Source: a virus
Lineage: Duplodnaviria; Heunggongvirae; Uroviricota; Caudoviricetes
DNA length: 5,669 nt
Virus record (IMG/VR): IMGVR_UViG_3300029253_000142
Direction: 5' to 3' (one strand)
The notes under the pieces were generated by a model. The model made no database searches, was not told where the DNA came from, and saw only the letters and a list, made by a program, of their open reading frames with translations. Of this stretch, positions 1 through 4,839 are shown piece after piece (positions within the stretch are counted from its first letter, which is position 1; every line of letters begins with the position of its first letter). Both the position numbers and the translations under genes were made by a program.

Positions 1-102
1 ACTACTTATTTGGTGGACACCACTTTGTCTAATTCGTCAGATTCTGACCAGACGGTTCAGGCTGTACGCTTACGTTTTATCAGGGGAATTATCGGGAGGT
101 GA
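1..102 (+). CDS. 3' end of an upstream gene (partial, product unknown)
   Basis: Frame 1 is open from position 1 to a TGA at 100-102 (TTYLVDTTLSNSSDSDQTVQAVRLRFIRGIIGR*). The Shine-Dalgarno of the next gene (GGGAGG, 94-99) lies within its last codons, an operon-like arrangement. Too short to assign a product. Confidence 0.3.
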   Translation, partial: TTYLVDTTLSNSSDSDQTVQAVRLRFIRGIIGR

Positions 103-106
103 TGCT

Positions 107-340
107 GTGAGTACATCGGCTACCATTCTCGACATGTGCTGTGGCAGTCGCATGCTCTGGTTCGATAAGAATGACGAATGGTCGATATTTAGCGATATCA
201 GGAAAGAGGAACATTCGCTATGTGATGGACGTCACCCGATTATTAATCCCGACATTATAGCTGATTTTCGTGCGCTGCCGTGGTTGTCTGCTTTGCATCA
301 AAAGCAGACATTACCAGATTTAGACATCTGTTTCCGATAG
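107..340 (+). CDS. 77-aa hypothetical protein; N-terminus resembles a class I SAM-dependent methyltransferase fragment (possible remnant)
   Basis: GTG start at 107 is preceded by a strong SD (GGGAGG, 94-99). Residues ILDMCCGS resemble SAM-binding motif I (hhDxGCGxG) and [10 protein letters not shown] resembles the DAxxLPF motif of small-molecule methyltransferases. At 77 aa it is too short to be a complete methyltransferase fold. Confidence 0.45.
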
Positions 341-393
341 CCCGTTCTGATGCTACACTTTTTGCTATTTTCATGAACCTCATAAACACATTT

Positions 394-1059
394 ATGACTG
401 TTGCTGATTTCAAACGCCCCAAATTGGAGCTCCCAAACGGGGCAAAAAAACTATTACTGCACTCTTGCTGTGCTCCATGTTCCGGTGAAGTGATGGAGGC
501 GCTTCAGGCCTCGGGAATCGACTACACCATCTTTTTCTACAACCCGAACATTCATCCTCAGAAAGAGTATTTAATTCGTAAGGATGAGAATATTCGCTTT
601 GCTAAACAACACGGCGTGCCATTTATTGATGCTGATTACGACACAGACAACTGGTTTGAGCGAGCCAAAGGAATGGAATGGGAGCCTGAACGAGGGATCC
701 GTTGTACCATGTGTTTTGACATGCGTTTTGAGCGGACTGCGCTGTATGCCGCTGAAAATGGTTTCAGTGTGATCAGTAGCTCACTGGGCATTTCACGCTG
801 GAAAAATATGCAGCAGGTTAACGACTGTGGACGGCGAGCCGTCGCGTATTATCCGGGCATGGTGTACTGGGATTATAACTGGCGAAAGCAGGGCGGCTCT
901 TCCCGCATGATTGAAATCAGCAAGCGCGAACAATTCTATCAGCAGGAATATTGTGGCTGCGTGTATTCACTGCGCGATACCAATCTACACCGCAAATCTC
1001 AGGGACGCCCTCTAATCAAAATTGGTCAACTCCACTACGGTAAAGAAGGCCAGGAATGA
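394..1059 (+). CDS. queH: QueH-like epoxyqueuosine reductase homolog (DUF208 family)
   Basis: Long ORF with CCAPC (466-480), CTMC and CGC cysteine motifs, consistent with my recollection of the QueH/DUF208 family. Start is uncertain: ATG 394 is preferred, ATG 373 and the ORF-track start 280 are alternatives, and none has a clear SD. Stop is TGA 1057-1059. Confidence 0.75.
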
Positions 1060-1138
1060 TTTTATATTATGCCAACGGAGCGTAGCAGTGTTTCTATATA
1101 TAGTACGCCTACCTTAATTTTCAAATAATCATGATTAA

Positions 1139-1173
1139 TGAGCAGGTCATCAGTGCAAGCAATGACCTGCTCA
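1139..1173 (+). terminator. Perfect 12-bp inverted repeat (TGAGCAGGTCAT / ATGACCTGCTCA, 11-nt loop) downstream of the queH-like gene; possible terminator or protein-binding site
   Basis: Arms at 1139-1150 and 1162-1173 are exact reverse complements. The downstream sequence TCTTGTTG is only weakly T-rich, so terminator function is uncertain. Confidence 0.3.
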
Positions 1174-1467
1174 TCTTGTTGAAATTAGAGGAAATCTTGC
1201 AGCCATGATATGGCTTAAAATAACGTTTGATTATTTTACCTGCTGTTTGTCCCTGGTTTAAAGTCGGTTGTCTGATTTGATTACGCGCAACTGACGCTTA
1301 CGTATTGAAGTAACGAGCACGAAGACACATATTTATCAGTGCCTGTATACGTCAAGAGCAGGAGATTTATGTGCTGGTTCTCAAATGCACGCTGGCTATT
1401 GTGGCTGTAATGGCAATTTATTGTCTTGTTATTGTTCTTATGGATCACCTTTCTGATTGATTTCATA

Positions 1468-1496: not shown

Positions 1497-1559
1497 GGCT
1501 GCGGGTGCTTGAGGCTATCTGCCTCGGGCATGAACACCAACGGCAGATAGAGAAAAGCC

Positions 1560-1625
1560 CCAGTTAACATTACGCGTCCTGCAAGACGCTTAACATTAAT
1601 CTGAGGCCAATTTCATGCTAGACAC
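1560..1625 (-). ncRNA. Candidate Sok-like antisense RNA covering the mok translation-initiation region
   Basis: By analogy with hok/sok loci, Sok is encoded antisense to the mok SD/start. A weak minus-strand promoter (TTGCCT, plus 1658-1653; TAACCT, plus 1635-1630) would start transcription near 1623. A hairpin GCGTC/GACGC (1574-1589) is flanked by a 9-bp direct repeat TTAACATTA. Boundaries are guesses. Confidence 0.2.
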
Positions 1626-1827
1626 ATGTAGGTTAGCCTCTTACGTGCCGAAAGGCAAGGAGAAGCAGGCTATGAAGCAGCAAAAGGCGATGTTAATCGC
1701 CCTGATCGTCATCTGTTTAACCGTCATAGTGACGGCACTGGTAACGAGGAAAGACCTCTGCGAGGTACGAATCCGAACCGGCCAGACGGAGGTCGCTGTC
1801 TTCACAGCTTACGAACCTGAGGAGTAA
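1615..1827 (+). CDS. mok-like reading frame (in-frame upstream extension of hok)
   Basis: ATG at 1615 with GAGG at 1603-1606 upstream; 70 codons in the same frame and with the same stop as hok, matching the Mok/Hok arrangement as I recall it from annotated chromosomal hok loci. Confidence 0.4.
   Translation: MLDTCRLASYVPKGKEKQAMKQQKAMLIALIVICLTVIVTALVTRKDLCEVRIRTGQTEVAVFTAYEPEE
1672..1827 (+). CDS. hokD: Hok/Gef-family type I toxin, 51 aa, matching HokD (RelF) as recalled
   Basis: Translation MKQQKAMLIALIVICLTVIVTALVTRKDLCEVRIRTGQTEVAVFTAYEPEE has a single transmembrane helix and the Hok signature, and matches my recollection of HokD/RelF. Strong SD AAGGAG (1656-1661) precedes ATG 1672; stop TAA at 1825-1827. 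Confidence 0.9.
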   Translation: MKQQKAMLIALIVICLTVIVTALVTRKDLCEVRIRTGQTEVAVFTAYEPEE

Positions 1828-1834
1828 GAGACCC

Positions 1835-1856
1835 GGCGAGGGAGAAATCCCTCGCC
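1835..1856 (+). promoter_or_regulatory. Perfect 9-bp stem with GAAA tetraloop in the hok 3' UTR
   Basis: GGCGAGGGA (1835-1843), GAAA loop, TCCCTCGCC (1848-1856), immediately after the hok stop codon. Plausibly part of the folded hok mRNA 3' region. Confidence 0.45.
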
Positions 1857-1895
1857 ACCTCTGATGTGGCAGGCATTCTCAACGCACCCGCACTT

Positions 1896-1926
1896 AACCC
1901 GCTTCGGCGGGTTTTTGTTTTTATTT
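1896..1926 (+). terminator. Rho-independent terminator of the hok transcript
   Basis: Stem CCCGC (1898-1902) / GCGGG (1907-1911) with TTCG loop, followed by TTTTTGTTTTTATTTT. Confidence 0.7.
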
Positions 1927-4749: not shown

Positions 4750-4761
4750 ATCGCGTATGTT
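4733..4761 (+). promoter_or_regulatory. Candidate late promoter (PR'-like, TTGCAA-N17-TATGTT) overlapping the Q stop codon, with -10-like repeats downstream
   Basis: -35 TTGCAA at 4733-4738, 17-bp spacer, -10 TATGTT at 4756-4761. -10-like elements TATAAA (4765-4770) and GATATT (4774-4779) fall in the predicted early transcribed region, reminiscent of sigma-dependent pause elements at qut sites. Not validated. Confidence 0.25.
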
Positions 4762-4810
4762 TCGTATAAATCTGATATTTTGCCGATTTTGTACGTGATG
4801 GCAAAGTAAG

Positions 4811-4839
4811 AAAAAACCACCGCCAGGTGGTTTTTTTTA
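4811..4839 (+). terminator. Rho-independent terminator after Q (possible tR'), A-tract/T-tract flanked
   Basis: AAAAAA, stem CCACC (4817-4821) / GGTGG (4826-4830) with GCCA loop, then TTTTTTTT (4831-4838). The symmetric A/T flanks mean it could terminate in both directions. Confidence 0.7.

What the first reader, a model, noticed from the sequence alone, without database searches (positions are those of the whole stretch)
107..340. Methyltransferase-like 77-aa ORF upstream of queH: remnant or small protein?
The ORF has a strong SD and two motifs typical of class I SAM methyltransferases (ILDMCCGS, and DFRALPW resembling DAxxLPF), but it ends after 77 aa, too short for a complete fold. It may be the 5' stump of a methyltransferase gene truncated when the queH-like cassette arrived, which would mark a recombination junction around 340-394.
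Basis: inference. Interest (0 to 1): 0.35.

Follow-up and report, generated by a model that had tools for sequence, protein, structure and literature searches.

The report
Truncated phage methyltransferase pseudogene beside queH
The 77-codon reading frame is the dead front third of a small phage methyltransferase gene, cut off where a queH gene cassette was joined to it in an E. coli prophage; it is an ordinary gene remnant that public annotation already marks as a pseudogene.

Summary
The ORF is real: 107-340, GTG start, GGAGG 7 nt upstream, 77 aa. Its first 59 codons are clearly homologous to a very large family of ~156-170-aa phage and prophage class I SAM-dependent methyltransferases (PHROG 11564 and 954, E 1e-24 to 1e-28, residues 3-61 only). 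Intact members continue with the motif IV strand VVFDPPH and about 100 more residues. None of that is present anywhere in the window.

DNA homology to methyltransferase genes stops at window 279-281. Exactly there, homology begins to the leader of a queH cassette that sits in 921 other E. coli genomes without any methyltransferase. So the junction lies inside the ORF, not at 340-394, and the last 18 codons are read-through into foreign non-coding leader.

The stump carries F17L, R25W and L44P at near-invariant family positions, which fits decay. NCBI's PGAP pipeline already annotates it as "methyltransferase, incomplete, missing C-terminus" in 72 complete E. coli genomes.

Similar-length 78-aa proteins in Klebsiella-type phages are an independent in-frame chimera with the tail of a C5-cytosine methylase, not orthologues.

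The feature is ordinary and already known.

The parts
1..73 (-). Terminal 73 bp of an IS66-family element (ISEc8-like), ending in the inverted repeat ...GGCTGTACGCTTAC. The rest of the IS lies off the left end of the window.
   Evidence: Bases 1-84 match thousands of multi-copy places on E. coli chromosomes and plasmids. In PCN033 and on a plasmid of an O157:H7 strain the match is the end of annotated ISEc8 (tnpA/tnpB/transposase). The end is defined by sequence.
74..81 (.). 8-bp target-site duplication GTTTTATC of the IS insertion.
   Evidence: PCN033 has the same insertion with GTTTTATC on both sides of the IS. An uninterrupted DUF977 gene (E. coli C) reads ...CTGACGTTTTATCAGG....
74..110 (+). 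Last 11 codons plus the stop of the DUF977-family gene, cut off from its 5' part by the IS.
   Evidence: Annotated DUF977 CDS ends at this position in E. coli C and AMSCJX02. Upstream of 74 the frame contains stops (read).
95..99 (+). Shine-Dalgarno GGAGG, 7 nt before the GTG start.
   Evidence: Read from the sequence.
107..281 (+). Methyltransferase-derived part of the ORF (codons 1-58/59): motif [10 protein letters not shown], the conserved D30, and ADFRALP.
   Evidence: PHROG hits cover residues 3-61. DNA alignment to intact genes is 80-84% identical up to about 279-281. Column conservation. PGAP pseudogene 'methyltransferase, missing C-terminus' at window 107-292.
279..281 (.). Recombination junction (+/-2 nt) with about 3 nt of microhomology (CGT).
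   Evidence: The megablast match to the methyltransferase-less queH loci starts at window 279. Methyltransferase homology ends at CCGT.
282..340 (+). Foreign tail of the ORF: 18 codons plus the TAG stop, read from the queH-cassette leader.
   Evidence: 86% identical to the region upstream of queH in JJ1887 and O157 Z887. Seven differences between the two alleles, 5 non-synonymous and 2 synonymous (read). No significant similarity to the rest of intact methyltransferase genes or to the Klebsiella-type tails.
285..310 (.). Perfect 10-bp inverted repeat TGTCTGCTTT / AAAGCAGACA with a 6-nt spacer, just right of the junction. Degenerate in the JJ1887 allele, so probably not functional.
   Evidence: comparison with JJ1887.
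279..393 (+). Leader of the queH cassette. A possible extended -10 TGcTACACT at about 350-358 is inference only.
   Evidence: Homology to other queH loci begins at 279, 324 or 346 depending on context. The consensus promoter scan found nothing here.
394..1059 (+). queH (epoxyqueuosine reductase, DUF208), the gene whose cassette replaced the 3' two-thirds of the methyltransferase gene.
   Evidence: Pfam QueH E=2.7e-65. Annotated as QueH in RefSeq.

Best explanation
The ORF is a non-functional remnant (pseudogene) of a small phage-encoded class I SAM-dependent methyltransferase. That gene normally follows, and is translationally coupled to, the DUF977 gene in the early-right operon of Qin-like lambdoid prophages.

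An illegitimate recombination with about 3 nt of microhomology at window 279-281 joined codon 58/59 of this gene to the leader of a queH cassette. About 100 codons were removed, including the motif IV strand VVFDPPH and the whole C-terminal half of the fold.

The start codon and ribosome-binding site survive, so ribosomes may still make a 77-aa peptide that runs 18 codons into foreign sequence. That peptide has only roughly the first three strands of a seven-strand fold, so it cannot methylate anything. The stump is now accumulating damaging substitutions.

Shown: the homology limits, the junction position, the absence of the 3' half, and the substitutions at invariant sites. Inferred: lack of function, the order of events, and whether the ORF is translated.
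For: (1) Intact relatives are 156-170 aa: 80 loci, and 7788 protein clusters. They contain an invariant FDPPH after the breakpoint.
(2) Profile similarity covers only residues 3-61.
(3) DNA homology to methyltransferase genes ends at 279-281. From 279 to 1065 the window is 93% identical to queH loci in 921 E. coli genomes that have DUF977, then 58 bp, then queH, with no methyltransferase.
(4) tblastn finds no trace of methyltransferase residues 63-164 anywhere in the window.
(5) At 28 columns that are >=96% conserved in 68 intact members, the stump has three replacements never seen in intact members: F17L, R25W and L44P. 52 of 68 intact members have none and only 2 of 68 have three or more.
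(6) Rare population variants of the 77-aa protein hit invariant motif I residues (D9E, C12F, R15S), and a frameshift variant exists.
(7) The tail differs from the JJ1887 allele by 5 non-synonymous and 2 synonymous changes, as expected for non-coding DNA.
(8) PGAP flags it as an incomplete pseudogene in RefSeq genomes.
Against: The ORF is still open, with a strong SD, in 72 complete genomes and on at least 1000 contigs. However, these copies are >=99% identical, so there has been little time for decay.

Pairwise dN/dS to the nearest intact allele is 0.09. dS is about 1, so this mostly reflects history before the truncation and does not test the stump.

Other lineages also keep open N-terminal fragments of about 60-90 aa. 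Function of a fragment therefore cannot be formally excluded. No expression data were available.
Confidence: 0.88

Rival explanations
1. The stump is kept as a translated upstream ORF. Its translation, or the leader it overlaps, modulates queH expression, for example by shielding read-through transcripts from Rho-dependent polarity or by placing ribosomes 54 nt before the queH start.
For: A strong SD and an open frame end 54 nt upstream of queH. queH itself has no obvious SD. No consensus promoter was found between 107 and 394, so queH may depend partly on upstream transcription.
Against: 921 genomes carry the same cassette with no stump, and other contexts start the cassette at 324 or 346. 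The stump is therefore dispensable for queH. In this window an IS element has cut the region off from the early operon anyway.
Confidence: 0.06
2. The N-terminal 60 residues of this methyltransferase family have a function of their own as a small protein, for example a SAM-binding or dominant-negative mini-domain. That would explain why open N-terminal fragments recur in several phage lineages.
For: Independent open fragments exist (64-135 aa). The Klebsiella-type 78-aa form is open in three alleles with dS 0.4-1.3 and omega 0.05-0.19 in both the N-terminal part and the tail, and it keeps all invariant residues. Several breakpoints cluster at residues 56-66.
Against: The low omega of the 78-aa forms can be inherited from the two functional parent genes. 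The junction lies in a shared LPFA(E/D)A microhomology that can recombine repeatedly.

The protein search returned nothing longer than 135 aa, presumably a length limit relative to the query, so it returned truncated forms only.

The window's stump, unlike the Klebsiella-type forms, has non-conservative changes at invariant sites. By general knowledge of the fold, half of a Rossmann-like fold is not expected to be stable.
Confidence: 0.05
3. The truncation arose in situ by a frameshift or internal deletion within the methyltransferase gene, not by joining to a queH cassette.
For: Such variants do exist in the family: frameshift forms P0005, P0032 and P0036, and the internal in-frame deletion P0013.
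Against: The tail has no significant similarity to any part of intact genes in any frame. It is instead homologous to the queH leader of methyltransferase-less loci. No 3' half is present in the window.
Confidence: 0.01

Closest known systems
Small (~160-aa) phage/prophage class I SAM-dependent methyltransferases (PHROG 954 / 11564). Examples: Erwinia phage vB_EhrS_49 gp30, Pectobacterium phage ZF40 'putative methylase', Klebsiella phage ST13-OXA48phi12.4 QBQ71947, E. coli WP_038348394.1.
   Same: Residues 1-59 are homologous (71-79% aa identity to enterobacterial members). The genomic slot is the same, directly after and overlapping the DUF977 gene. The motif I sequence is the same ([10 protein letters not shown]).
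   Different: It lacks residues ~60-160, including the invariant FDPPH and the C-terminal strands. It has F17L, R25W and L44P at near-invariant positions and carries an 18-aa foreign tail. The biochemical target of the intact family (DNA or RNA) is not established by anything I found; 'DNA methyltransferase' is only an annotation label.
RefSeq/PGAP pseudogene 'methyltransferase; incomplete; missing C-terminus' (e.g. DIZ83_RS24200 in E. coli C, DUT84_RS24595 in AMSCJX02), and GenBank/UniRef protein 'methyltransferase [Escherichia coli]' A0A2S5UDG1.
   Same: This is the identical sequence and locus (99.9-100% over 69-1200).
   Different: In this window an ISEc8-like element additionally interrupts the upstream DUF977 gene 33 bp before the ORF.
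78-aa chimeric ORFs of Klebsiella-type lambdoid phages (P0008, P0017, P0019).
   Same: Same N-terminal methyltransferase fragment, nearly the same length, and a breakpoint within about 10 nt of this one.
   Different: An independent event. Their tail is the last 17 codons (motif X region...PPPFAEALVRANLPE...) of a 715-aa C5-cytosine methylase that precedes dinI, joined in frame at an LPFA microhomology. There is no queH, and the tails are unrelated at DNA level.

Membership tests
Class I (Rossmann-like) SAM-dependent methyltransferase, functional enzyme | Motif I: strand 1 followed by a Gly-containing SAM-binding loop | tested here: met
   ILDMCCGSR aligns to columns 85-100% conserved in 68 intact members and to VLDLACGVG of PDB 1ve3 in a non-significant profile match.
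Class I (Rossmann-like) SAM-dependent methyltransferase, functional enzyme | Acidic residue at the end of strand 2 (ribose contact) | tested here: met
   D30 (FSDIR) is in a 100% conserved D column. Its structural role is inferred from general knowledge of the fold.
Class I (Rossmann-like) SAM-dependent methyltransferase, functional enzyme | Motif IV / catalytic strand 4 (here FDPPH) | tested here: not met
   Invariant F69-D70-P71-P72-H73 in intact members. Absent from the 77-aa product and from the whole window.
Class I (Rossmann-like) SAM-dependent methyltransferase, functional enzyme | Complete seven-strand core (about 150 aa or more) | tested here: not met
   Only 59 homologous residues, against 156-170 aa in intact members.
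Class I (Rossmann-like) SAM-dependent methyltransferase, functional enzyme | Match to curated profiles (Pfam Methyltransf_11/25, NCBIfam) | tested here: not met
   No hit at E<=1 for the 77-aa product. Intact members are only borderline.
Phage small methyltransferase family (PHROG 954 / 11564), by descent | Significant profile match | tested here: met
   E=2.9e-28 and 1.4e-24, but only for residues 3-61, against profile positions 3-61 of 117 and 50-108 of 229.
Pseudogene (truncated remnant) | Shorter than all functional relatives, with the homology break explained by a rearrangement | tested here: met
   Junction at 279-281 to the queH-cassette leader. No 3' half in the window.
Pseudogene (truncated remnant) | Signs of relaxed constraint | tested here: met
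   Three never-seen replacements at columns >=96% conserved. Rare variants at D9, C12 and R15 plus a frameshift allele. Power is limited because the copies are >=99% identical.
Conserved stand-alone small protein | Orthologues of the same architecture (same junction and tail) conserved across diverged lineages | tested here: not met
   Copies with this junction are all >=95% identical: 71 genomes at >=99%, 1 at 95-99%, and the next class at <=84% is intact or differently truncated. The 78-aa look-alikes have a different tail and origin.
Conserved stand-alone small protein | Evidence of expression | not testable with these tools
   No transcript, ribosome-profiling or proteomic data were accessible.

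The most novel reading that the evidence does not exclude
N-terminal fragments of about 60 aa of this small phage methyltransferase might be retained repeatedly because they do something on their own, for example sequestering SAM or poisoning a related enzyme. Examples are the 77-aa form here and the 78-aa in-frame chimeras in Klebsiella-type phages, which stay open over dS of about 0.4-1.3. On this reading the E. coli ORF would be a functional microprotein rather than debris.
Probability: 0.05. Interest if true: 0.55.

Novelty: already known. Interest (0 to 1): 0.1.

Why it matters
It matters little. It is a textbook mosaic junction in a lambdoid prophage, and it helps delimit the queH cassette, whose left end is at window 279 in this lineage. 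It also shows that the cassette displaced part of a methyltransferase gene. Its practical value is for annotation: the deposited 77-aa 'methyltransferase' proteins should be treated as pseudogene products, and their last 18 residues are not methyltransferase sequence.

Tried and rejected
- **Pfam and NCBIfam scans of the 77-aa product:** no hits.
- **PDB sequence and profile searches with intact relatives:** only non-significant class I methyltransferase matches, E 0.36-0.5.
- **AlphaFold2 model of an intact member (P0063, 30-sequence alignment):** mean pLDDT 57 with the N-terminal 45 residues below 50. Too poor for a fold search, so it was not used.
- **Homology between the window's tail and the Klebsiella 78-aa tail** (A-L...L-P-D/E-L...C looked similar by eye): rejected. 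Local DNA alignment was no better than shuffles, with 63 of 300 shuffles reaching the observed score. The Klebsiella tail was traced to a C5-cytosine methylase C-terminus.
- **The tail as a diverged middle part of the methyltransferase gene** (MAFFT aligned it there): rejected by the shuffle test.
- **Group II intron or another RNA element at the left end:** Rfam found nothing there. It is an ISEc8 end.
- **Pairwise dN/dS of the stump against intact alleles:** uninformative for the period after truncation, because dS is about 1.
- **Literature search for prophage QueH:** nothing relevant.

Full report
**Observation.** The window carries an ORF at 107-340 on the + strand: GTG start, 77 codons, TAG stop. 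GGAGG lies at 95-99, 7 nt upstream. The GTG overlaps the TGA of the preceding gene (GTGA, 107-110), which is the usual translational-coupling arrangement. In an alignment with 68 intact relatives, ILDMCCGSR and DFRxLP fall in columns that are 85-100% conserved.

**Context.** The window is part of a Qin-like lambdoid prophage of E. coli. Downstream of the ORF lie:
- queH (394-1059; Pfam QueH, E=2.7e-65)
- sok/hokD (Rfam sok, 115 bits, 1503-1677; Hok Pfam)
- rem
- a DUF968 gene (ydfU)
- rusA
- a Q antiterminator

RefSeq loci that are 99.9-100% identical over 69-1200 carry the gene names dicB, hokD, rem, ydfU, ydfT and rrrQ.

The first 73 bases of the window are the end of an IS66-family element (ISEc8-like), with its 8-bp target duplication GTTTTATC at 74-81. 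It is inserted into the 3' end of the DUF977 gene, 33 bp before the ORF.

**What the ORF is related to.** Pfam and NCBIfam find nothing in the 77-aa product. The phage family library matches it strongly, but only over residues 3-61: PHROG 11564 at E=2.9e-28 and PHROG 954 at E=1.4e-24, both labelled 'DNA methyltransferase'.

Intact relatives are 156-170 aa:
- Erwinia phage 49 gp30, 156 aa
- Klebsiella phage phi12.4, 160 aa
- E. coli VL7S7 WP_038348394.1, 164 aa
- 80 loci across Enterobacterales, Pseudomonas and Brucella
- 7788 protein clusters at E<=1e-10

Some members carry a ~248-aa extended form. After ...ADFRALPF they all continue with ADASFPVVVFDPPHLERVG... and about 90 further residues. 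F-D-P-P-H is invariant. The family sits in the same slot as here, directly after and overlapping DUF977.

**Where homology breaks.** At the DNA level the window aligns with intact or longer methyltransferase genes (80-84% identity) up to ...GCGCTGCCGT, and then all similarity ends.

Independently, 921 E. coli genomes have a queH locus about 93% identical to the window. Their match starts at window 279 and runs to about 1065. In those genomes (JJ1887, O157:H7 Z887) queH follows DUF977 after 58 unrelated bases plus this leader, with no methyltransferase sequence.

The junction is therefore at 279-281 (+/-2), with only about 3 nt (CGT) shared by both parents. It lies inside the ORF, after codon 58/59. 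Codons 60-77 ([18 protein letters not shown]) come from the cassette leader.

Further points on the junction:
- Between the window and JJ1887 alleles the tail differs by 5 non-synonymous and 2 synonymous changes, and the leader is only 86% identical against 93% for queH. That is non-coding behaviour.
- tblastn with intact proteins finds residues 1-62 (E=6e-30) and nothing else in the 5.7 kb. The 3' two-thirds of the gene was deleted or replaced, not displaced.
- queH occurs in other prophage contexts whose homology starts at 324 or 346. It behaves as a movable cassette with variable left ends.

**Is the stump decaying?** At the 28 columns (window residues 7-58) that are >=96% conserved among 68 intact members, the stump has three replacements that occur in no intact member: F17L, R25W and L44P. 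Of the intact members, 52 of 68 have no deviation and only 2 of 68 have three or more.

The exact 77-aa protein is in public databases on at least 1000 contigs. Its rare variants include D9E, C12F and R15S in motif I, and a frameshift allele exists.

No intact allele closer than 84% nucleotide identity exists in 5426 complete E. coli genomes. Pairwise dN/dS against that allele is 0.09 at dS of about 1. This reflects the long functional history before truncation and says nothing about the time after it.

**The one surprise, and its explanation.** The protein search returned three 78-aa proteins (P0008, P0017, P0019). They have the same N-terminus, all invariant residues intact, and a tail EALVRANLPELCQQKEMAA that looked faintly like the window's. 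They come from Klebsiella-type lambdoid phages, are not followed by queH, and show omega of 0.05-0.19 in both the N-terminal part and the tail.

Follow-up removed it:
- The tails are not similar to the window's beyond chance.
- Their breakpoint is about 10 nt further 3'.
- The tail is the last 17 codons of a 715-aa C5-cytosine methylase that normally precedes dinI (...GNAVPPPFAEALVRANLPEMC...). It is joined in frame at the LPFA(E/D)A microhomology shared by the two methylase genes.
- Their low omega can therefore be inherited from two functional parent genes.

They are independent chimeras, not orthologues of this ORF. The first search listed only truncated forms because it returned nothing longer than 135 aa, presumably a length limit relative to the query.

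**Mechanism.** The best-supported reading (about 0.88) is a pseudogene. Recombination between a methyltransferase-bearing prophage and a queH-bearing one removed motif IV and the C-terminal half of the fold. The surviving start signals may still drive synthesis of a 77-aa peptide. That peptide comprises roughly strands 1-3 of a seven-strand fold plus 18 random residues, and it cannot be a methyltransferase. In this particular window the ISEc8 insertion also separates the region from the early operon.

The rivals are an upstream ORF acting on queH expression and a functional N-terminal microprotein. Neither is excluded by experiment. Both are disfavoured by the 921 stump-less queH loci and by the damaging substitutions.

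**Novelty.** None. PGAP already annotates window 107-292 as 'methyltransferase; incomplete; missing C-terminus' in RefSeq genomes. What this analysis adds is the exact junction, the origin of the tail, the evidence of decay, and the explanation of the look-alike 78-aa proteins.

Noticed in passing
window 1-81: End of an ISEc8-like IS66-family element (terminal repeat ...GTACGCTTAC at 64-73) with the 8-bp duplication GTTTTATC. It is inserted in the last 12 codons of the DUF977 gene. E. coli PCN033 has an insertion at the identical site.
   Followed up: yes
window 279-1444: queH (epoxyqueuosine reductase, DUF208) is carried as a cassette in lambdoid prophages of 995 of 5426 complete E. coli genomes, between DUF977 and sok/hokD. 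Its left ends vary (279, 324, 346). To my knowledge E. coli already has the unrelated QueG for this step, so why prophages carry queH is unexplained.
   Followed up: partly
window 1066-1437: A 372-bp segment between queH and sok/hok is absent from the JJ1887-type cassette but present at 80% identity in strain GPEC657. It contains a perfect 13-bp stem, ATGAGCAGGTCAT...ATGACCTGCTCAT, at about 1139-1175.
   Followed up: partly
window 1503-1827: Complete sok antisense RNA / mok-hokD type I toxin-antitoxin module (Rfam sok 115 bits; Pfam HOK_GEF 3e-23).
   Followed up: no
window 1836-1917 and 4759-4837: Two weak matches to the Salmonella prophage sRNA isrK (26.6 and 19.4 bits, both below the gathering score of 50). 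One lies just after hokD, the other just after the Q antiterminator gene.
   Followed up: no
L016:4001-4237, L019:229-465, L023:1147-1383: 78-aa in-frame chimeras in Klebsiella-type phages. Codons 1-61 of the small methyltransferase are fused at an LPFA microhomology to the last 17 codons of a 715-aa C5-cytosine methylase. The frame is open in three alleles with omega of about 0.05-0.19.
   Followed up: partly
family-wide (proteins P0002-P0059): The small methyltransferase gene is broken in many different ways in enterobacterial prophages: a 118-aa form common in E. coli and Shigella, frameshift forms, an internal in-frame deletion that removes DPPH, and an in-frame stop in Klebsiella phage phi5.1. 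Several breakpoints cluster at residues 56-66.
   Followed up: partly
window 373 vs 394: queH has two in-frame ATG candidates. RefSeq uses 394 and phage HannyBb's annotation uses 373. Neither has a recognisable Shine-Dalgarno sequence.
   Followed up: no
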